24,000 nucleotides of DNA. It comes from Sulfolobus sp. S-194. Lineage in GTDB: Archaea > Thermoproteota > Thermoprotei_A > Sulfolobales > Sulfolobaceae. The position numbers were made by a program, and so were the translations under genes. The notes under the pieces were generated by a model that searched no databases, had not been told where the DNA came from, and saw only the letters and a program-made list of their open reading frames with translations. Location of the stretch: positions 2,606,945 through 2,630,944 of the forward strand of contig NZ_CP035730.1 in the NCBI RefSeq assembly GCF_012222305.1, given 5' to 3'. Below, one piece after another: positions 1,694 to 15,713 of this stretch; positions within the stretch are counted from its first letter, which is position 1, and each line of letters begins with the position of its first letter.

Positions 1694-3910
1694 TTATACT
1701 ATTGGATTTCCAAATAAGTCTTCTTCTTTGTTAACGTTAATTACTCTATTTTCTTTTAAAAATTTTATAAGTCTAAAGGATTTTTTCCTAGATAAATATT
1801 TATTATTATTACCACAGTAAGGGCTATAAATACATTTAGGGCATCCATCCTCACAATCACACTTACCAGTTATATCTAGTGAAATATCATAACTTTCTTC
1901 TAGCCTATCAAATAAAAGTTTGCTAACGCCACTTCCACCTATGACTGAATCGTAAATAATTACATGGCCACTAGGATAACTTATACCGGCTAAATCAGTT
2001 AGTGAAGCACCAGCAGTAATTCTGGCTGCACTAATTAAAACATGTTCTGTGGCATGAAAAGCTTCAACTGCATCAAACTCATTAAATTCTGCTAGAATTG
2101 GATGCTTAATTATAATCCCTTTTGTTTGATAAGAAAATTTTATCGGTTCTTTGTAATATCTCTCTTCTTTAGGTTTGTTCTTCCTACTCATTATGTCATA
2201 AACTACAAAACCATCAACTGAAATCATGATCTCAATTTCACCGTATTTTACTGGTAAACCTAATACTTCTTTACTTTCTATTTCTTTAAACGAAAGGAGA
2301 TGTGTATTGTATAAAGGTTTTGTATAATATGTTATATCATCCGAAATTCTCTTAACTTTAACAGTTAAATGAGATAGATCAATGCTTTCTACTGTATAAG
2401 TCCTTTTAGATATGAGATAAATAGCCTCTGGATAAAGATCATAAAGCGCAACTGGCAGTTCCCTTTCCCCAATCTTTTTATCCCCATCGTATATTTTTAC
2501 TATAGGACCAGTAGATCTTATTGAAGTAGATTTAACAAATTTAACAAGTTCTGGTGTAGAGTAAGCGTAATCTCCAGTTATTTTTACCGGTAAAGAGCTA
2601 AGTGCCTTTACCCAAAGTTTAGGGAGCGATGAAATTTTAACCTTTCCCTTTTCTACAACTAATGCTGCCGCATGGACTTTTATAACTTCCATATTTGTTG
2701 TGTCGAATGGCAAAGGAGTGAGCTTCCTGTTAAAGAACTCTTGAGGCTTACGATTGTAATATGCATCAATTGGATCTTCTCCCAGAAGGGTAAAAACATA
2801 ACCTATCTTATTCCTTCTCCCGGCTCTCCCTGCCCTTTGTAAATATTTAACGTAATTAGGAGGATTCTCAGCCAATATAACAGCGTCCAAATCCCCTATG
2901 TCTATTCCTAGCTCTAAAGTAGGTGTAGCAACTACACCCATTATTTTTCCTCTTTTAAAATCCTCCTCAACCTTTATCCTCTCTTCTGGGTTAATTCCGG
3001 CTCTATGCACTGGAATATCAAATCCGAATCTCTTTATTATTTTTCCTAAAACTTCTGCCATTTGTTGAGAGTCAACAAAGATTAAAACCTTAAGTCCTTT
3101 TTTCATTAAGAGTGAAGCTAAATAGGCAGCAATGGTCCATCTACTTAAAGAACCTATATCTAAAAGAACATGAAAAGCAACACCTTTTCTTCTATTAGTA
3201 CCTTGAATTATTTCTCCTTTTACACCAAATAGTTCCTCAAACAAATAAGGAGACGCACCTATAGTAGCACTAGAGGCTACAACATGATAATCGCCAAATT
3301 CCCTAATTCTATCGCTAATCATTCTAAGATGCGAACCTAATACACCTTCGTAAACGTGAACTTCATCAAAGACAAAATGTTCTGCTGTTCTCAATAATCT
3401 CCTAAATCTGTTGCTTAATGCTAATCCTATATGAATCATATCAGGATTAGTTATTAGAATATCAGGTGGATTTTCATATAATCTCTCCCTCTCTTTTTCT
3501 GGTGTATCTCCATCAAAAACACCAACAGTGATGCCTAATTCGGTTGTAAACTTAAGAATTCTTTCAAGTTGGTCTCTAGCTAAAGCTTTTGTAGGGTAAA
3601 CTAAAACGCTCCTTTCTCCTCTTAAAGAAAATTCAAGAATTGGTATCATGAAAGCTTCAGTTTTCCCTGTCCCTGTGCCAGATACTATCATAACGTTTTT
3701 TTTATCTAAAATTTTATGTAAAGCTTCTTCTTGATACTTATAGAGTCGTTCAATTCCTTGTTTTTTAAGGCTATCCTTTATTTTACTACCAATGTTGAGA
3801 GTATCTACAAAATTACCGAATTCTGGGTCAAGCGCAGTTTCCGTGTAAACATGACTAATTTTAACGTTAAAGTAGTCTAAAGCATTCTTTACTTCATCAA
3901 TTATATCCAT
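1694..3910 (-). CDS. Superfamily-2 DEAD/DEAH-box helicase with a C-terminal DUF1998 (MrfA-type Zn-binding) domain, MrfA/YprA/Hrq1-like
   Basis: The track ORF is 1694..3955. Helicase motifs are present: [11 protein letters not shown] (I), FDEVH (II), SSAT (III) and QRAGRAGRR (VI). The C-terminal Cys cluster is [27 protein letters not shown] prefer the internal ATG at 3910 ([11 protein letters not shown]...) because the first 15 codons ([15 protein letters not shown]) look like read-through and 3910 is well spaced from the shared A/T box at 3932-3950. The alternative start is 3955. Confidence 0.85.
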
Positions 3911-3931
3911 AAATAACAAGATTGAAATAAG

Positions 3932-3950
3932 AAAATTTATTTTTAAATCC
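3932..3950. promoter_or_regulatory. Shared A/T-rich TATA-like box between the divergent helicase and GAT-QueC genes (putative bidirectional promoter)
   Basis: The sequence is aaaatttatttttaaatcc. Its TTTATTTTTAAA core lies 18-29 nt upstream of the GTG at 3965 (+ strand) and 26-37 nt upstream of the ATG at 3910 (- strand). It is the only intergenic sequence available to both genes. Confidence 0.35.
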
Positions 3951-3964
3951 TCCATTATACGGAT

Positions 3965-5347
3965 GTGTGTAGTGTAACTGGGGTACTAATAATTAAACCA
4001 GAAAATTATGAAAAAATAGAAAAGAAGTTTATTCAGATTCTTAAGAGAGCAGAGGATAGAGGAAGAGATAGTTTTGGTGTTATAGTCATAGAGAAAGATG
4101 GAAGTATAAAAAAAGTTAAAGCTTTAGGGAGGCCGTCAACTCAAGAAGAGAAGTTATATGGCATATTAGATGAGAATTCCAAGGTAATAATAGCTAATAA
4201 TAGAGCAGAACCAACCACAGAATATGTAAGACAAAAGACAGAAGAGGATATTCAACCCTTTGAAGGAGAAAGATATATACTTACTCATAACGGAATAATC
4301 GCTAACGACTTGGAATTAGAGAAAAAATATAATGTGGTAAGAAGGACTAAAATAGATAGTGCGGTAATTCCACCGATTTTAGATAAATACTGGGATGGAG
4401 AAATAGAAAAATTAAGGAAAATACTAAATGATATTAAAGGGAGTTTTGCATTTATAATAGGTGATAAGAAGAAGCCTGATAGAATCTACATTGCTCAGAA
4501 TTTTAAGCCAGTGTATATGATGTATGATAGAGAGTTAGGTGCTATATTCTTTACATCACTTGATGATTACTTTGATGCCTCTCCATTTGATTCAGTAACA
4601 AAATTAGACCCTTACTCGATAGTAGAAGTTAATGATAAAATGGAAGTTAAAAAAGTTCAATTACTCGATAGTAAGATTAAAAAGGTTCTTGTAATTGCAA
4701 GTGGCGGACTAGATTCCACTGTAGCTGCAACATACTTACTAAGGCAAGGGTATGAAATCACTCTTTTACATTTTAATTATCATCATAAGGCTGAGGAGAG
4801 AGAAAGAGAAGCTGTAAAGAAGATTTCAGAATACCTACAAGTACCATTAATAGAGATTAACACTGACTTGTTTAAAATTATAGGACACACCACATTACTC
4901 AAGGGTGGTGGAGAAATTGTTAAAGAAAGATTTGGGGAGGAAGGTGCGGAATTTGCTCATGAATGGGTACCAGCTAGGAATCTGATTTTCTATTCGGTTG
5001 CTTTGGCATTAGCTGAGGCTTACGGGTATGACGCTATAGCATCTGGAATAAATTTAGAGGAAGCTGGAGCTTATCCAGATAATGAAATGGAGTTTGTAAG
5101 ATTATTTGCTAAACTATCTCCTTATGCTACTGGGCCTAATAAAAAAGTTGAAGTGATGATGCCAGTAGGCAATTTAGTAAAGCATGAAATTGTGAAACTC
5201 GGTGTTGAAATAGGTGCTCCGCTTCATCTAACATGGAGCTGTTATGAAGGTGGGCAAAAACATTGTGGGAAATGTGGGCCTTGTTATATGAGGAAGATGG
5301 CGTTTAGGATCAATGGACTTAAAGATCCAGTTGAATATGAAAGCTAG
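3965..5347 (+). CDS. queC: GAT-QueC fusion: an N-terminal class II (Ntn) glutamine amidotransferase domain fused to 7-cyano-7-deazaguanine synthase (QueC)
   Basis: A GTG start gives the N-terminus MCSVTG, where Cys2 is the nucleophile position of Ntn amidotransferases, and an HNG motif follows. The C-terminal half has the PP-loop [13 protein letters not shown] and the QueC zinc motif [21 protein letters not shown]. This two-domain architecture matches the crenarchaeal GAT-QueC family, which has been proposed to act in archaeosine synthesis. Confidence 0.9.
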
Positions 5348-5622: not shown

Positions 5623-5988
5623 ATGAAGTTATTTATTCCCATGATAGGTAGTGCTATAGTACTGTCTATAGGTGGAATTTTACTCATAAATAAGGTTCCT
5701 CTCATTATATCTCTAGGTACTTTAATAGCTGTTTTATTATTTCTTATTTCATTCCTTCTCATCTATAAGGAGTATAAAGCCGGTTATTATCTTGGTCTAG
5801 TTCTTAGTATTTTAGCTATATTATCTTCTGTAACTTCAACGACTCATGATAAGGCTTTATTAGCCTTTGGTTCTTCTTTATATATTTCTATTTTAGACAT
5901 ATTAATGCTATTAGGTTTCTATCTTTTCCCAGTTCTTTATATTATACTTTTTGCAAAAAAGTTAAAAAGGAGTATGACAAATAAGTAA
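5623..5988 (+). CDS. Small integral membrane protein (about 4 predicted TM helices), hypothetical
   Basis: The track ORF is 5578..5988 and starts at a TTG. I prefer the in-frame ATG at 5623 (MKLFIPMIGSAIVL...). The sequence is hydrophobic throughout. The gene ends 4 nt before the next gene. Confidence 0.55.
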   Translation: MKLFIPMIGSAIVLSIGGILLINKVPLIISLGTLIAVLLFLISFLLIYKEYKAGYYLGLVLSILAILSSVTSTTHDKALLAFGSSLYISILDILMLLGFYLFPVLYIILFAKKLKRSMTNK

Positions 5989-9638: not shown

Positions 9639-10628
9639 GTGTCTTTAATACCAATAATTTATTCAGATGTTTATTTATTACATAAGCCCAAATATACGCA
9701 TTCAGAGAATCCAGATAGGATAAAACGCGCTCTGGCAGAGTTAAAAGATTATCCCATAATTTCCCCGCAAAAGGTATCTGAAGAAGAAGTTAAATTAATT
9801 CATGATGAAGATTATATTAACCTAGTTAAATCATCTAGCAAAAAGGAGAGCATGATCGATCCCGATACTTACACTAGCAAAGAAACATTTGATGTAGCAC
9901 TCTACGCTCTAGGTGGGGCATTAAAAGCATTTGAGACTAATGGGTTCGCTTTGTTAAGACCTCCAGGTCATCATGCTGGTAGGTTCGGAAGGGCATTCAG
10001 TGCTCCAACACTAGGTTTTTGTATTTTCAATAACATCGCTTTTCCTATAAGAAAATACGCCTTAACGAGAGTATTAATTATCGATTTCGATGTGCATTAC
10101 GGTAACGGGACTCAAGATATATTCTGGAACGATTCAGAGATTGTGCATATAGATATTCATCAAGATCCAAGAACCATATATCCTGGTACTGGCTTCCCTG
10201 ATATGATCGGAGGAAAAAATGCTGAAGGCACAAAGATTAATCTATTAATTCCACCATTAGGAGGAGACGATTTATATGAAGAGTTAATACCTATCATACA
10301 ATCTATAATTGACGACTTTAAACCTAAAATAATAGCCTACTCTGCTGGTTTTGATGCTTTTGAAGGCGACGGACTTGCTAGTGTAAGGGCCACTGAGTGG
10401 ACATATTATAATATGGGTTTGCTTTCAAATAGGTTTGAAAGGAAATATGGAGTCCTTGAAGGCGGTTATAGCGTAGGTCTAATAAGGGGACTTAAGGCGT
10501 TTATATACGGATTACAAGGAGAAAAGAAGGTGTATTCTAAGAATACATCATCAGATGCTGTTAAGAGTAGATTCAGAAATTATGTATCTGAAGAAAAGAG
10601 GATATTAAGAGAATTCTGGAAAATTTAG
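9639..10628 (+). CDS. Histone deacetylase / acetoin-utilisation (AcuC) / acetylpolyamine amidohydrolase family protein
   Basis: This is a track ORF with a GTG start. HDAC-family motifs are present: RPPGHHAG, DFDVHYGNGTQ, GFDAFEGDGL and LEGGY. Confidence 0.88.
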   Translation: MSLIPIIYSDVYLLHKPKYTHSENPDRIKRALAELKDYPIISPQKVSEEEVKLIHDEDYINLVKSSSKKESMIDPDTYTSKETFDVALYALGGALKAFETNGFALLRPPGHHAGRFGRAFSAPTLGFCIFNNIAFPIRKYALTRVLIIDFDVHYGNGTQDIFWNDSEIVHIDIHQDPRTIYPGTGFPDMIGGKNAEGTKINLLIPPLGGDDLYEELIPIIQSIIDDFKPKIIAYSAGFDAFEGDGLASVRATEWTYYNMGLLSNRFERKYGVLEGGYSVGLIRGLKAFIYGLQGEKKVYSKNTSSDAVKSRFRNYVSEEKRILREFWKI

Positions 10629-11458
10629 CAAGTATAATAGCACTTTAATGCTAAATTATATGCAGCATTAAAGTCTCTATCTGCTTTGAATCCGCATGCT
10701 GGGCATACAAATAAAGGTCCTAAGACTTCTCCTTTTTTGAATCCGCAGTTTGAGCAAATTTTACTTGTATTATAAGGATCAACTAACTTATACTTTATAC
10801 CCCTGGAGTATAATTGTTGTTCTAGTTCTATTTCAATATTTCTTAAAGTATTTCCAACCTTATTTTCAAATATTCTTAAATCTTCTAAAGCTACGATCTT
10901 AGGGTTTAATTCATCAATGAAATTTACTATATCGTTTATTACCTTTCTAACCTTACTTCTAATGTTTTTTATTTCACTAACTCCTTGAGGATCTCCTAGG
11001 ATTTTAATCATTTCATCAGTGATCAGTTCTTTTCCCCAAAACCTAGTCTTCCATAGTTTTCCATTTCTCAAAGCTACAATTGTAATTAGATGTCTTACTC
11101 CAATATCTACCCCCACAATAGATCGAGGTTTTTCATATGCTAAGTAAACCTTAATGTTGTTTGTAAAATCGATAACCGCATATAGTGGTATCTCTTCTCT
11201 TTCACTTTTTACTATGGCATTTATTCCTTTTAATTTGTAAGGATTATTACCTATTATTTCTATTGGTCCGTATTTCACTTCATTAGAATTTAACGCTAAA
11301 TAATACAGTTCTTTTGGTATATTATGTGGTGGTGGTCCTACATCTTGTCCTTTCATTTTCAAAATTTTAGAATATTGTCTTATAAATTGGACTTCCTTAT
11401 ATAATTCCCTCAATGTTCCGTAATCTATAATTTTAGCTTCAACTAATTCCTCATTCAT
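10625..11458 (-). CDS. tnpB: Compact solo TnpB-like (IS200/IS605 OrfB-type) RuvC nuclease with a zinc ribbon
   Basis: This is a track ORF of 277 aa. The candidate RuvC triad is GVDIG (D118), ALEDL (E192) and DRDFNAAYN (D260/D262). A CxxC...CxxC zinc ribbon (CSNCGF...CPACGF) sits between E and the last D, which is the order typical of TnpB/Cas12. No tnpA is adjacent, and there is no flanking non-coding DNA that could hold IS ends. Confidence 0.75.
   Translation of the reverse strand: MNEELVEAKIIDYGTLRELYKEVQFIRQYSKILKMKGQDVGPPPHNIPKELYYLALNSNEVKYGPIEIIGNNPYKLKGINAIVKSEREEIPLYAVIDFTNNIKVYLAYEKPRSIVGVDIGVRHLITIVALRNGKLWKTRFWGKELITDEMIKILGDPQGVSEIKNIRSKVRKVINDIVNFIDELNPKIVALEDLRIFENKVGNTLRNIEIELEQQLYSRGIKYKLVDPYNTSKICSNCGFKKGEVLGPLFVCPACGFKADRDFNAAYNLALKCYYTC
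10642..10674. repeat. Perfect 11-bp inverted repeat (hairpin with an 11-nt loop) inside the last 50 nt of the TnpB-like ORF, 14 nt past the deacetylase stop
   Basis: The left arm actttaatgct (10642-10652) is the exact reverse complement of the right arm agcattaaagt (10664-10674). The loop is aaattatatgc. I verified this base by base. Confidence 0.8.
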
Positions 11459-11477
11459 AAATATAAATTTGATTATC

Positions 11478-11485
11478 TATTTAAA
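11478..11485 (-). promoter_or_regulatory. TATA-like box for the TnpB-like gene
   Basis: The minus-strand sequence TTTAAATA lies 20-27 nt upstream of the ATG at 11458, within the 31-nt gap after the upstream gene's stop codon. This spacing is consistent with an independent, near-leaderless transcript. Confidence 0.4.
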
Positions 11486-11489
11486 TGTT

Positions 11490-12209
11490 TTAGCCAGATA
11501 TTTCATTAATTGAGCTAAAACTTAATTCTTCAACATTCTTACCTAAATAGTATCCAACAGTAGATGAAAATATATAGTTCTCATATCTATAAAGTTTATA
11601 ATATTCTTCAATTTCCTTCATTCTATTTTTATTATAATAATATCCAACAAGTATTCTAGGTCCTTCTTGGTTATTAAAAGTCAATAATGCAGAATTAAGA
11701 CTAGAGGCGTACTGAGAAAGAGCACTTAACGTTTCCAAGTAAGCAGTTTTAAAATCATTCTTCGAAGTATAGTTCCTTATTATTTCTAGGAAAAACAAAT
11801 AACTATCAGTTGAAGGGTAGTTAGGCTCGGAAAATGCCTTTCTGTTTATAGAGCCATTATGTGCGAAATATAAGTCGTGTGTAGGTAATCTATAATAGTA
11901 GGGATGATTATGTCTTACACCTAGAAGGAAGTTTTTCCCTGCTTTCCTAGCATGAAATATAGCATATATTTCATCTCCCTTAAGCAAATTCAGGTAATCA
12001 AAAAATAAAGGATCTTCATAAATAGGCTCATTAGTCTTATAATAAAGTACTTTCCACTTACTATTTTTTGAAATAAGCGATACAAATCCCCAGCCATCTG
12101 AATGTGAACCATATTTAAAATATACATCATTCTTGCTGGCGCTTAGAAAAGCTTTCAAAACCTTAAGATTTGGCTCTCCTTTTGCTTTAAAAGCAAGAAT
12201 TCTACACAT
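11490..12209 (-). CDS. Class II (Ntn-type) glutamine amidotransferase-domain protein, YafJ-like, stand-alone
   Basis: This is a track ORF. The N-terminus is MCRILAF, with the nucleophile Cys at position 2. The motifs FHARKAGKN...RHNHPY and FAHNGSI are typical of the GATase class II fold. Its start overlaps the upstream MBL gene by 8 nt. Confidence 0.7.
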   Translation of the reverse strand: MCRILAFKAKGEPNLKVLKAFLSASKNDVYFKYGSHSDGWGFVSLISKNSKWKVLYYKTNEPIYEDPLFFDYLNLLKGDEIYAIFHARKAGKNFLLGVRHNHPYYYRLPTHDLYFAHNGSINRKAFSEPNYPSTDSYLFFLEIIRNYTSKNDFKTAYLETLSALSQYASSLNSALLTFNNQEGPRILVGYYYNKNRMKEIEEYYKLYRYENYIFSSTVGYYLGKNVEELSFSSINEISG

Positions 12210-12900
12210 CTACCATCATACCATCATATGCTATAATATAACCCTTTGCTATTTCTTTAACTTGATTTTCTATTTGGGCTGGAATATGTGTTATAATTAA
12301 TTTATTGCGATCATACATATTTATGAGTTGCTTCAGTGAAGTATGTCCATATTGCTTGCAATCGTCTACACAACTACCTTCATGTATAATAAGGTCTGCA
12401 TCTTTTGCTTCATCTAATATAGCCTCGCAAGGTTCTAAAGTATCTCCAGTGTAAATAATCTTCTTTTTGCCGTCTGTTATTATATAAGAAACAGCATAAA
12501 TACTATGACATGCTTTAACGGAGTATATTTCTAGATCTCCAATTTTAGCTTTTGGAAGTTCGCTTTCTATCATATTTGCTGAAATGTTGTTACCACTTTT
12601 AACATATGAATCTAAGACTTTAAGAATTCCTGGTGGTGAATAAACTTGTATTTCTTTCATTCTTAATATTTTTCTTTGAACTAAATGGTCAAATAATCCA
12701 TTTATATGATCTATATGAAGGTGTGTAATGAAGATTGCTTCAAAATCTAAGAGGTTTAAATCCTCAATCTTAAAATTCGCCCCTGTGCCTAAATCTAATA
12801 ATACAGAAGTTCCTTCATTACTTTTGATGTATATAGAAGATTTAACCCTTTTTGAACCAAAAGTTGCCCCTGCACCCGTACCTATAAATATAATCTTCAT
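12202..12900 (-). CDS. Metallo-beta-lactamase-fold hydrolase (short RNase Z/ElaC-like)
   Basis: This is a track ORF. The motif FITHLHIDHINGL is present, and further His/Asp ligands lie downstream (ACHS, GDT, HEGS, GHTS). An SD-like GAGGGATGA sits 5-14 nt upstream of the ATG. Confidence 0.75.
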   Translation of the reverse strand: MKIIFIGTGAGATFGSKRVKSSIYIKSNEGTSVLLDLGTGANFKIEDLNLLDFEAIFITHLHIDHINGLFDHLVQRKILRMKEIQVYSPPGILKVLDSYVKSGNNISANMIESELPKAKIGDLEIYSVKACHSIYAVSYIITDGKKKIIYTGDTLEPCEAILDEAKDADLIIHEGSCVDDCKQYGHTSLKQLINMYDRNKLIITHIPAQIENQVKEIAKGYIIAYDGMMVDV

Positions 12901-15101: not shown

Positions 15102-15713
15102 TTATTTATTTCTCTTGTAGGGGCATACAGAGGAATAGACGCAATAACTACATTCCCAGGGATACCTAGGTACTTTAGTTCTTTTTAGCGTCTCTTCAGC
15201 TAGTCTGATTACTCCTACCTCGTCTGCTGGTTCATTTACTTCATATTCAGTTACTCTGTCTGGAGTTATATACACTAGTAAACCTCTCTTTATTCCAGTC
15301 ATCCAAAGGTAAATTTGTAATTGAACTTTATGATGCTCATGTGGTAATCCCTTATCAGCCCTAGCACTTTTTATTTCAATTACTACTTTTTCTCCGTTAA
15401 TTTCGGCTATTGCGTCAATTCTTCCTTTTATCTTTACTTGTTTATTATTTATTGGAATTTCTTTTTCTATCTCAACCTCAACTTGAGAATTACTAAAGTT
15501 ATTTTTAATGAAGTTTTCTAATCCCTCATGTACCATATCGCCTAAAATCGTAGAGGGTGTGAAGACCTCTGAAATTGCTAGTTCTTTATACGTTTTTTCA
15601 TACTGGAGTTTTAGGGGACATCTTATTAAGTCTGTGACGTAAAGTGTATTATCATCCTTTGTATGCGTTAGATAATCTTCCAATTTCTTTTTAAAAATTT
15701 TTTCCACTAGCAT
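15102..15713 (-). CDS. cas4: Cas4-family (DUF83) PD-(D/E)xK exonuclease with a 4-Cys Fe-S cluster signature, stand-alone
   Basis: This is a track ORF of 203 aa. It has an N-terminal Cys (DLIRCPLKLQY), GRIDAI (motif II Asp), VIEIKS (ExK), VQLQIYLW (QhxxY) and a C-terminal CSYCVYSSVCP (CxxCx5C). No cas genes or CRISPR array are in the window. Confidence 0.8.
   Translation of the reverse strand: MLVEKIFKKKLEDYLTHTKDDNTLYVTDLIRCPLKLQYEKTYKELAISEVFTPSTILGDMVHEGLENFIKNNFSNSQVEVEIEKEIPINNKQVKIKGRIDAIAEINGEKVVIEIKSARADKGLPHEHHKVQLQIYLWMTGIKRGLLVYITPDRVTEYEVNEPADEVGVIRLAEETLKRTKVPRYPWECSYCVYSSVCPYKRNK

What the first reader, a model, noticed from the sequence alone, without database searches (positions are those of the whole stretch)
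10625..11458. Unusually compact (277 aa) solo TnpB-like RuvC protein, apparently fixed in a housekeeping context
Seen in sequence:
- The ORF has the TnpB/Cas12 arrangement RuvC-I (GVDIG), RuvC-II (ALEDL), CxxC...CxxC zinc ribbon and RuvC-III (DRDFNAAYN), with all three acidic residues intact.
- It is only 277 aa long. Only about 115 residues precede the first catalytic Asp and 17 follow the last.
- It has its own TATA-like box.
- It sits 31 nt after the upstream gene, and its stop overlaps the convergent deacetylase gene. There is no tnpA and no space for IS200/IS605 left or right ends.

Established: TnpB proteins are omega-RNA-guided nucleases, typically about 350-550 aa (ISDra2 TnpB is 408 aa). 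Some bacterial TnpB derivatives have been domesticated as RNA-guided regulators.

Inference: this is either a miniaturised, immobilised TnpB relative with a host function or a decaying IS remnant. The intact triad and the promoter argue against simple decay.
Basis: partly seen in the sequence, partly recalled or inferred. Interest (0 to 1): 0.7.

Follow-up and report, generated by a model that had tools for sequence, protein, structure and literature searches.

The report
Domesticated mini TnpB nuclease of Sulfolobaceae
This gene encodes a 277-residue, immobilised relative of the transposon nuclease TnpB that all Sulfolobaceae archaea inherit as a conserved single-copy gene; it keeps its cutting site but has no detectable guide RNA next to it, and the clade was already described in 2023 as "GATase-TnpB" with unknown function.

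Summary
ORF 10625-11458 (-) encodes a 277-aa TnpB-family protein with an N-terminal WED-like lobe, RuvC D118/E192/D262 and a CxxC...CxxC zinc ribbon. It has its own TATA-like box, lies 31 nt after a class II glutamine amidotransferase gene, and overlaps a convergent deacetylase gene by 4 nt.

It is not a decaying IS relic.
- Full-length 272-285 aa orthologues occur once per genome across Sulfolobaceae.
- 21 of 26 distinct loci keep the GATase gene immediately upstream.
- The triad and zinc-ribbon cysteines are invariant in 32 orthologues.
- dN/dS is 0.03-0.10, and dN is lower than in the three neighbouring genes in nearly every pair.

It is not new. Altae-Tran et al. 2023 (PNAS, PMC10691335) describe this clade as "GATase-TnpB". 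They note the size (~280 aa), WED plus active RuvC only, no room for a downstream RNA gene, and possibly RNA-independent action.

This work adds that the last 240 nt of the ORF show no conserved RNA structure and no synonymous constraint. The GATase subfamily has the same Sulfolobaceae-only distribution, yet five lineages keep the nuclease without an adjacent GATase.

The best guess is an active RuvC nuclease that works without a cis-encoded omega RNA. Its cellular role is unknown.

The parts
10625..11458 (-). Complete ORF of the compact TnpB-like protein (277 aa), a member of the 'GATase-TnpB' clade
   Evidence: Identical to QIW25109.1. 40 full-length orthologues of 272-285 aa.
11123..11458 (-). 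N-terminal lobe, residues 1-112. Order: beta-strand 3-12, two helices (16-35, 49-57) that look like the remnant of REC, then a five-stranded WED-like beta region 62-109.
   Evidence: AF2 models: whole protein pLDDT 88.6, lobe alone pLDDT 93.7. The top three Foldseek PDB hits are the ISDra2 TnpB N-lobe, TMq 0.51-0.55, but with weak E-values of 0.26-0.6. No sequence-profile match to canonical TnpB before residue 91.
11105..11107 (-). RuvC-I catalytic Asp, D118 (GVDIG)
   Evidence: Invariant in 32 orthologues. Aligns with the invariant D188 of canonical TnpBs.
10883..10885 (-). RuvC-II catalytic Glu, E192 (ALEDL)
   Evidence: Invariant. Aligns with the invariant E277 of canonical TnpBs.
10694..10756 (-). 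TNB zinc ribbon: C235-x2-C238 ... C252-x2-C255
   Evidence: PF07282, E 1.5e-17. All four Cys are invariant.
10673..10675 (-). RuvC-III catalytic Asp, D262 (DRDFNAAYN)
   Evidence: Invariant. Aligns with the invariant D359 of canonical TnpBs.
11478..11485 (-). TATA-like box TTTAAATA, 20-27 nt upstream of the ATG. It implies the gene has its own promoter and probably a leaderless mRNA.
   Evidence: Sequence read directly. An A/T-rich TATA-like motif sits 20-35 nt upstream of the ATG in nearly all orthologous loci. Promoter function is inferred, not shown.
11490..12209 (-). Upstream co-directional class II (Ntn, N-terminal Cys) glutamine amidotransferase, the partner gene that gives the clade its name
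   Evidence: PF13230 at its cut-off. Immediately upstream, or separated only by a small ORF, in 21 of 26 distinct loci. This subfamily is restricted to Sulfolobaceae.
12202..12900 (-). Short RNase Z/PhnP-like metallo-beta-lactamase-fold hydrolase. It overlaps the GATase start by 8 nt, so the two are a likely operon.
   Evidence: Stays with GATase and the TnpB-like gene in rearranged loci L012 and L019.
9639..10628 (+). Convergent HDAC-family deacetylase whose stop overlaps the TnpB-like stop by 4 nt. It is context only, not a constant partner.
   Evidence: It is replaced by other genes in S. acidocaldarius, Metallosphaera, Aramenus and L032.

Best explanation
The ORF is the Sulfurisphaera (Sulfolobus sp. 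S-194) orthologue of the published 'GATase-TnpB' clade. This is a TnpB gene that lost its transposon, was cut down to about 280 aa, and has since been inherited vertically as a single-copy host gene throughout Sulfolobaceae.

Shown:
- The protein keeps a WED-like beta lobe, the complete RuvC D-E-D site and the TNB zinc ribbon.
- REC is reduced to two helices and the C-terminal tail is gone.
- The gene is under strong purifying selection.
- No conserved omega-RNA-like sequence or structure lies in or after its 3' end.

Inferred:
- It is transcribed from its own TATA box, probably as a leaderless mRNA.
- It acts as a metal-dependent RuvC endonuclease that does not use a cis-encoded omega RNA.
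- Its substrate is recognised by the protein itself (WED plus zinc ribbon, possibly as an oligomer or with a partner such as the co-distributed GATase/MBL pair).
- Its role is a conserved cellular nucleic-acid transaction, not transposition or defence.
For: Family identity:
- PF07282, E 1.5e-17.
- PDB sequence hits are Cas12f and TnpB.
- Foldseek top hits are AsCas12f and ISFba1 TnpB, E about 1e-11.
- hhalign probability 99.9 against canonical TnpBs, with the triad aligned.

Distinct tight clade:
- An exhaustive HMM search finds only 7 cluster representatives at E < 1e-30, six of 247-285 aa plus one 101-aa fragment.
- The next hits drop to 1e-19 and match the RuvC half only.

Vertical, single-copy inheritance:
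- One locus per Sulfolobales genome.
- Conserved order GT2-Cas4-PfkB-PfkB-MBL-GATase-TnpB-like.
- Divergence correlates with that of the neighbours, r = 0.80-0.90.

Selection:
- D118, E192, D262 and the four Cys are invariant.
- dN/dS is 0.03-0.10.
- dN is below that of GATase, MBL and HDAC in all but two near-tied pairs.

No cis guide RNA:
- The downstream neighbour varies and usually abuts the stop codon.
- Synonymous sites vary freely along the whole ORF.
- RNAalifold on the last 240 nt of 22 orthologues gives -1.19 kcal/mol, 7 pairs and no compensatory change.
- Rfam finds nothing.
- The folding z-score is not conserved.

Against: - No experiment exists on this protein.
- Absence of a cis omega RNA does not exclude a guide encoded elsewhere.
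- The RNA tests have limited power. A canonical Sulfurisphaera TnpB 3' region reached only z about -2 in the same test. I had no set of canonical orthologues to serve as a positive control for RNAalifold.
- The N-lobe assignment to WED rests on weak fold matches, E 0.26-0.6.
- All characterised members of the superfamility with an intact RuvC site are RNA-guided, so an RNA-free mechanism would be an exception.
Confidence: 0.55

Rival explanations
1. It is still an RNA-guided nuclease, but the guide is encoded in trans. Candidates are omega RNAs of resident IS200/IS605 copies or another small RNA. The protein might work as a dimer, as Cas12f does, to make up for the missing REC lobe.
For: Every characterised active TnpB, Cas12 or Fanzor is RNA-guided (PMC10691335, PMC10640517). 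The closest structural matches are Cas12f proteins, which act as dimers. Sulfolobales genomes carry many canonical TnpB elements, for example the 394-aa copy in L032. The protein is basic, pI 8.9.
Against: REC, which holds the guide-target duplex in TnpB, is reduced to two helices. No conserved RNA lies at the locus. The gene is retained in every lineage, whereas IS content is highly variable. The authors of the clade description themselves doubt RNA binding.
Confidence: 0.25
2. It is the toxin or effector half of a two- or three-gene module with the GATase (and MBL) gene. That would be a defence or toxin-antitoxin-like system in which the nuclease is kept in check by its neighbour.
For: The GATase gene is directly upstream in 21 of 26 distinct loci. 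The GATase subfamily has the same Sulfolobaceae-only distribution. PMC10691335 notes that some exapted active TnpBs look like toxins.
Against: The distribution is universal, vertical and single-copy, unlike the patchy pattern typical of defence and TA modules. The TnpB-like gene has its own promoter-like box. Five lineages keep it without an adjacent GATase: L016, L020, L029, L034, L037. GATase and MBL have no meaningful PADLOC hit: none for GATase, and only a marginal LmuA match (E 0.0023) for MBL.
Confidence: 0.1
3. It is a nuclease-independent DNA- or RNA-binding regulator, like the bacterial TldR proteins.
For: Domesticated TnpBs are known to act as RNA-guided repressors (PMC10705468).
Against: TldRs have an inactivated or truncated RuvC site and a long 3' non-coding guide region. 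Here the triad is invariant in 32 orthologues and there is no such region.
Confidence: 0.06
4. It is an ordinary decaying IS200/IS605 remnant, a truncated tnpB pseudogene.
For: It is shorter than any canonical TnpB. Databases annotate it as 'transposase'.
Against: Orthologues are full-length and of constant length over the whole family. dN/dS is 0.03-0.10 and the catalytic residues are invariant. Genuine loci show no frameshifts; the split match in L021 is a run of N. There are no IS ends and no tnpA.
Confidence: 0.02

Closest known systems
'GATase-TnpB' clade of Sulfolobaceae (Altae-Tran et al. 2023, PNAS; PMC10691335)
   Same: Everything that defines the clade is the same: Sulfolobaceae host, about 280 aa, WED plus catalytically intact RuvC, a position next to a glutamine amidotransferase gene, no room for a downstream RNA gene, and non-mobile status. 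The window gene is a member.
   Different: Nothing differs in kind. This work adds a test of the point that paper left open, namely an omega RNA overlapping the CDS, and the result is negative. It also adds quantified selection and shows that GATase adjacency is frequent but not obligatory. REC is not wholly absent: two helices remain.
Canonical IS200/IS605 TnpB (ISDra2 TnpB, 408 aa; Sulfolobus islandicus SisTnpB1, PMC10640517)
   Same: RuvC D-E-D triad, TNB zinc ribbon and WED-like N-lobe. hhalign probability is 99.9 over residues 91-272.
   Different: About 110-130 aa shorter. About 67 residues are missing from the N-lobe (REC), the helical insert between RuvC-I and RuvC-II is shorter, and there is no C-terminal tail. 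It has no omega RNA, no LE/RE ends and no TnpA. It is single-copy and vertically inherited. It scores 63 bits against a cut-off of 100 for NCBIfam guided_TnpB.
Cas12f (type V-F effectors, 400-530 aa)
   Same: These are the best structural and sequence matches in the PDB. They too are miniature RuvC plus zinc-ribbon proteins derived from TnpB.
   Different: There is no CRISPR array and no cas adaptation genes nearby. The protein is much smaller and lacks the REC and zinc-finger elements that Cas12f uses for dimerisation and guide binding.
TldR, the TnpB-like nuclease-dead repressors of bacteria (PMC10705468)
   Same: A domesticated, immobilised TnpB derivative fixed next to host genes.
   Different: TldRs are bacterial, have an inactivated RuvC site and carry an adjacent guide RNA. 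This protein is archaeal, has an intact triad and has no adjacent guide.
Other short non-mobile TnpBs with an apparently active RuvC, such as the Halobacteria-specific branch mentioned in PMC10691335
   Same: Lineage-fixed, short, apparently active TnpB derivatives of unknown function.
   Different: A different clade and host group. No GATase association is reported for them. I did not compare the sequences.

Membership tests
TnpB superfamily (RuvC/TNB fold) | Split RuvC nuclease with a D-E-D triad in the order RuvC-I, RuvC-II, zinc ribbon, RuvC-III | tested here: met
   D118, E192 and D262 are invariant in 32 orthologues. They align to the invariant D/E/D of canonical TnpBs.
TnpB superfamily (RuvC/TNB fold) | CxxC...CxxC target-nucleic-acid-binding zinc ribbon (PF07282) | tested here: met
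   PF07282 scores 63.9 bits against a cut-off of 26.3. The four Cys are invariant.
TnpB superfamily (RuvC/TNB fold) | N-terminal WED beta-barrel interrupted by a helical REC domain | tested here: inconclusive
   The topology fits: strand, two helices, then a beta region. The top fold hits are the ISDra2 N-lobe at TMq 0.51-0.55, but E is only 0.26-0.6. REC is reduced to about 45 residues. No profile match before residue 91.
Transposon-borne OMEGA TnpB (IS200/IS605, IS607) | Omega RNA encoded at or overlapping the 3' end of the gene | tested here: not met
   No non-coding space downstream. No synonymous constraint. No conserved structure in the last 240 nt across 22 orthologues. No Rfam match. 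The power of these tests is limited.
Transposon-borne OMEGA TnpB (IS200/IS605, IS607) | IS context: LE/RE ends, an associated TnpA, and multiple mobile copies | tested here: not met
   No transposase in the window. No flanking repeats or hairpins. One syntenic locus per genome.
Transposon-borne OMEGA TnpB (IS200/IS605, IS607) | Reaches the curated NCBIfam score for the RNA-guided endonuclease TnpB family | tested here: not met
   NF040570 scores 63.1 bits against a cut-off of 100, and only residues 171-271 match.
GATase-TnpB clade (PMC10691335) | Sulfolobaceae host, about 280 aa, non-mobile | tested here: met
   277 aa. Orthologues of 272-285 aa occur in Sulfurisphaera, Sulfolobus, Saccharolobus, Stygiolobus, Sulfuracidifex, Acidianus, Metallosphaera and Aramenus.
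GATase-TnpB clade (PMC10691335) | Adjacent class II glutamine amidotransferase gene | tested here: met
   The GATase_4 gene ends 31 nt upstream. The same arrangement holds in 21 of 26 distinct loci.
GATase-TnpB clade (PMC10691335) | Catalytically intact RuvC and no room for a downstream RNA gene | tested here: met
   In the window the stop codon overlaps the convergent gene by 4 nt.
TldR (nuclease-dead TnpB-like repressors) | Inactivated or truncated RuvC site plus an adjacent guide RNA | tested here: not met
   The triad is intact and invariant. No adjacent RNA was found.
Cas12f / type V CRISPR effector | Adjacent CRISPR array | tested here: not met
   No array-like repeats in the 24-kb window.
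Active RuvC endonuclease (function) | Metal-dependent nucleic-acid cleavage that needs D118/E192/D262 | not testable with these tools
   Inferred only, from invariance of the triad and from mutagenesis of the equivalent residues in SisTnpB1 (PMC10640517).

The most novel reading that the evidence does not exclude
The protein would be the smallest natural TnpB-family nuclease that has abandoned the omega-RNA guide altogether, or takes a guide in trans. It would serve a core, Sulfolobaceae-wide nucleic-acid transaction such as repair, recombination or RNA/DNA end processing. It would be functionally coupled to the equally lineage-restricted Ntn-amidotransferase and RNase Z-like hydrolase encoded upstream. 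That would be a first case of an RNA-guided nuclease scaffold reverting to a protein-only housekeeping enzyme.
Probability: 0.3. Interest if true: 0.7.

Novelty: already known. Interest (0 to 1): 0.4.

Why it matters
The gene shows that a TnpB scaffold can be fixed in a whole archaeal family for a host function while staying catalytically intact and shrinking to about 280 aa. That is well below any TnpB or Cas12f shown to work.

If it cuts DNA without a guide, it marks a reversal of the RNA-guided lifestyle. It would also define the minimal WED + RuvC + zinc-ribbon core.

If it does use an RNA, it would be the smallest RNA-guided nuclease known, and thermostable, which interests genome-editing work.

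Both outcomes can be tested directly in S. acidocaldarius or S. islandicus, which are genetically tractable. The clade and its oddities are already in the literature (PMC10691335). The value here is confirmation plus narrowing of the RNA question, not discovery.

Tried and rejected
1. Omega RNA overlapping the 3' CDS or lying downstream: rejected as a conserved feature.
- Synonymous sites are free.
- RNAalifold is essentially empty.
- Rfam finds nothing.
- The good fold of window 10475-10775 (-), z = -3.4, is strain-specific.

2. Thermodynamic z-score scanning as an omega-RNA detector: a canonical TnpB control reached only about -2. I treat this test as weak.

3. IS relic: rejected.

4. CRISPR association: rejected.

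5. Essentiality from the S. islandicus Tn-seq study (PMC6249222).
- The stored supplementary tables are truncated and the gene's row could not be found.
- From those tables I inferred that the MBL neighbour is Saci_0271/SSO0006/ST2327/SiH_2058.
- The TnpB-like gene is then probably Saci_0269/SSO0008/SiH_2056. This assignment is unverified.
- Literature searches on these tags found nothing relevant. My first guesses (Saci_0257, Msed_0205) were wrong.

6. Other short TnpB-like hits of 259-306 aa in the exhaustive search: most look like N-terminally truncated metagenomic fragments. I did not pursue them.

7. The upstream 312-aa gene in divergent locus L034 is not a GATase.

I could not measure the geometry of the triad or test whether C273/C277 form an extra metal site.
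Full report
**Observation.**
The minus-strand ORF 10625..11458 is an ATG-to-TAA frame of 277 codons. Its product is identical to QIW25109.1 of Sulfolobus sp. S-194 and differs at five residues from the Sulfurisphaera tokodaii protein, so the window comes from a Sulfurisphaera-group genome.

- Pfam finds only the Cas12f1-like TNB zinc ribbon (PF07282, E 1.5e-17).
- NCBIfam's RNA-guided TnpB model matches only residues 171-271, at 63 bits against a cut-off of 100.
- The best PDB sequence matches are Cas12f and TnpB chains, again over the C-terminal ~100 residues.

The positional claims also hold. The gap to the upstream gene is 31 nt. It contains TTTAAATA at -27..-20. The stop codon overlaps the convergent deacetylase ORF by 4 nt. 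The rest of the window is housekeeping, with no transposase, no CRISPR array and no terminal repeats around the gene.

Two small corrections: 117 residues precede D118 and 15 follow D262.

**What it is.**
A word-indexed search of 5.8 billion proteins returned 40 relatives, 38 of them full-length at 272-285 aa, from every cultivated Sulfolobaceae genus. Identity runs from 98% down to 44%, then falls abruptly to E about 1e-6 for ordinary 355-363 aa TnpBs.

An exhaustive profile search of 1.84 billion cluster representatives gave the same picture. Seven representatives scored E < 1e-30: six of 247-285 aa and one 101-aa fragment. The next hit was at 1e-19, and the canonical TnpBs matched only profile positions ~100-273. 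The first ~100 residues are therefore specific to this clade at the sequence level.

In an alignment of 32 orthologues, D118, E192, D262 and C235/C238/C252/C255 are invariant. A profile-profile comparison with 13 canonical TnpBs (probability 99.9) aligns residues 91-272 with canonical 158-369. It puts the three acidic residues on the invariant D/E/D columns. Mutation of the equivalent residues abolishes cleavage in Sulfolobus islandicus SisTnpB1 (PMC10640517).

The AlphaFold2 model is confident (pLDDT 88.6). Its order is:
1. a beta-strand;
2. two helices (16-35, 49-57);
3. a beta region (62-109);
4. the RuvC fold with a two-helix insert;
5. the zinc ribbon;
6. a final helix that ends the protein.

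Foldseek places the whole model with AsCas12f, other Cas12f proteins and ISFba1 TnpB at E about 1e-11.

The N-lobe modelled alone (pLDDT 93.7) finds the ISDra2 TnpB WED/REC lobe as its three best PDB matches. TMq is 0.51-0.55 but E is only 0.26-0.6, so the WED assignment is plausible and not proven.

Compared with canonical TnpB, the protein lacks about 67 N-lobe residues (most of REC), part of the inter-RuvC helical insert and the C-terminal tail.

**Immobilised and under selection.**
Loci from S. acidocaldarius, S. islandicus, Metallosphaera sedula and 14 further Sulfolobales genomes or MAGs carry one copy each. Almost all keep the order GT2 - Cas4-like - PfkB - PfkB - MBL - GATase - TnpB-like that the window shows on its minus strand.

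The downstream neighbour is not constant:
- a convergent HDAC in Sulfurisphaera, Saccharolobus, Stygiolobus and Acidianus;
- a metallophosphoesterase in S. acidocaldarius;
- an M24 peptidase in Metallosphaera and Aramenus;
- inserted IS elements in one metagenomic contig.

Identity of the TnpB-like protein to the window copy tracks that of five neighbouring proteins (Pearson r = 0.80-0.90), as expected for vertical descent.

Among seven Sulfurisphaera-group sequences, dN/dS is 0.03-0.10 where dS is not saturated. dN is lower than for GATase, MBL and HDAC in all but two near-tied comparable pairs, and dS is similar. The relic hypothesis is excluded.

**The guide-RNA question.**
Canonical omega RNAs start inside the 3' part of tnpB and run into the right end of the IS. 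Here there is essentially no 3' non-coding DNA, and what follows differs between genera. The remaining possibility, which the published description left open, is an RNA wholly inside the CDS. I tested it three ways.

1. Among the seven close sequences, 71-100% of conserved degenerate codons in every 30-codon window show synonymous variation. There is no dip in the 3' third.
2. RNAalifold on the gap-free last 240 nt of 22 orthologues gives -1.19 kcal/mol, seven pairs and no compensatory change.
3. Folding z-scores along the sense strand are unremarkable in nine orthologues.

The one exception is the window itself. The orthologous stretch has z = -1.4 in S. tokodaii and -1.8 to +1.5 in fifteen other loci. 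It looks like a strain-level accident of codon choice: an FNAA/LALK palindrome plus two convergent gene ends.

Rfam finds nothing at either threshold.

There are caveats. A canonical 394-aa TnpB from a Sulfurisphaera contig reached only z about -2 in the same scan. I had no canonical orthologue set for an RNAalifold positive control. I conclude that there is no conserved cis-encoded omega RNA. A trans-encoded RNA is not excluded.

**The GATase link.**
The upstream gene encodes an Ntn-type (MC...) class II amidotransferase (PF13230). Its start is overlapped by a short RNase Z/PhnP-like MBL hydrolase gene.

This GATase subfamily has the same distribution as the nuclease. It is found in Sulfolobaceae only, at 43-95% identity, and then drops to 31% paralogues. 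That is some support for a shared origin or function.

Against a tight coupling:
- The nuclease gene has its own TATA-like box in nearly all loci.
- In five loci a conserved 87-89 aa ORF with no known domain sits between the two genes.
- At least five lineages keep an intact nuclease gene without an adjacent GATase: L029, L016, L020 (HS-7), L034 and L037.

The whole ~10-gene block is syntenic, so adjacency alone is weak evidence.

**Comparison with what is known.**
Altae-Tran et al. 2023 (PNAS, PMC10691335) describe a 'GATase-TnpB' clade. They state that it is found in Sulfolobaceae and lies next to a glutamine amidotransferase gene. It has not enough room for a downstream RNA gene. It is unusually small (~280 aa) and consists of wedge and catalytically active RuvC only, so RNA binding is uncertain. 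[quoted passage not shown]

The window gene meets every feature of that description. In the searchable library no other paper mentions the clade, and I found no experimental follow-up.

The gene is not a canonical OMEGA TnpB: it has no omega RNA, no IS ends and no TnpA, and it scores below the NCBIfam cut-off. It is not a TldR, because the triad is intact. It is not a Cas12f, because there is no array.

**Mechanism, committed.**
The most likely mechanism (about 0.55) is a RuvC endonuclease expressed from its own promoter that works without a cis-encoded guide. It would recognise its substrate through the WED-like lobe and zinc ribbon, possibly as an oligomer or with a partner, in a conserved cellular process.

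Shown:
- family membership;
- an intact and invariant active site;
- immobilisation and vertical inheritance;
- strong purifying selection;
- absence of a conserved cis RNA.

Inferred:
- nuclease activity;
- RNA independence;
- promoter use;
- a housekeeping role.

The rivals are:
- a trans-encoded guide, perhaps with dimerisation (0.25);
- a GATase-controlled toxin or defence module (0.10);
- a nuclease-independent regulator (0.06);
- an IS relic (0.02).

**Verdict.**
The finding is already in the literature as a computational description, so novelty is 'already known'.

Interest is moderate (0.4). The protein is an intriguing, uncharacterised, minimal TnpB derivative in genetically tractable archaea. 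This analysis confirms and slightly sharpens an existing description; it does not reveal something new.

Noticed in passing
L010:5711-5980, L012:5671-5937, L013:725-988, L011:~5727-5978, L021:~5711-5977 (absent from the window): A conserved 87-89 aa ORF sits between the GATase and TnpB-like genes in five lineages (Aramenus, Acidianus-like and Sulfuracidifex-like). It has no Pfam, NCBIfam or PADLOC match and could be a lineage-specific third component of the module.
   Followed up: partly
window 15102-15713 (-): A stand-alone Cas4 (TIGR00372, 155 bits) with no CRISPR array or other cas genes in the window. It lies four genes upstream of the TnpB-like gene in most Sulfolobaceae loci. It is probably the orthologue of the characterised S. 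solfataricus SSO0001; that inference rests on gene order and my memory and was not verified.
   Followed up: partly
window 10475-10775 (-): The convergent 3' ends of the TnpB-like and deacetylase genes fold unusually well as RNA in this strain only: z = -3.4, with 0 of 100 shuffles as good. The fold includes a hairpin made by the FNAA/LALK codons. It is not conserved even in S. tokodaii (z = -1.4).
   Followed up: yes
window 3965-5347 (+): A 460-aa fusion of a class II glutamine amidotransferase domain (PF13537) with QueC (PF06508), that is, a 7-deazaguanine pathway enzyme with its own GATase domain.
   Followed up: no
window 1694-3955 (-): A 753-aa DEAD/Helicase_C protein with a C-terminal MrfA-type zinc-binding domain (PF09369), a repair-type helicase.
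   Followed up: no
L032:4220-6592: In one Sulfurisphaera-like metagenomic contig, the deacetylase gene downstream of the TnpB-like gene is replaced by a DDE transposase fragment and a canonical 394-aa TnpB. The compact gene next to them is untouched.
   Followed up: partly
L029:2833-3001: One Sulfurisphaera-like contig lacks the GATase gene between MBL and the TnpB-like gene, leaving a 167-nt gap, yet keeps an intact 279-aa nuclease ORF.
   Followed up: partly
window 12202-12209: The MBL-fold hydrolase ORF and the GATase ORF overlap by 8 nt, which suggests translational coupling. The same overlap recurs in the orthologous loci.
   Followed up: no
window 10625-11458 (-), residues 273 and 277; residues 158-159: Two further features are conserved and unexplained. 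The C-terminal C273 and C277 (motif KCYYTC) are nearly invariant. A Q158-G159 pair is invariant in the least confident loop of the model, between the two helices of the RuvC insert. The possibility of an extra metal site or a lid-like element could not be tested without model coordinates.
   Followed up: no
PADLOC model PDLC01039: A PADLOC profile named 'Csx1' matches residues 100-270 of the TnpB-like protein at E 2.6e-17. It looks like a TnpB/Cas12-like model carrying a misleading name.
   Followed up: no
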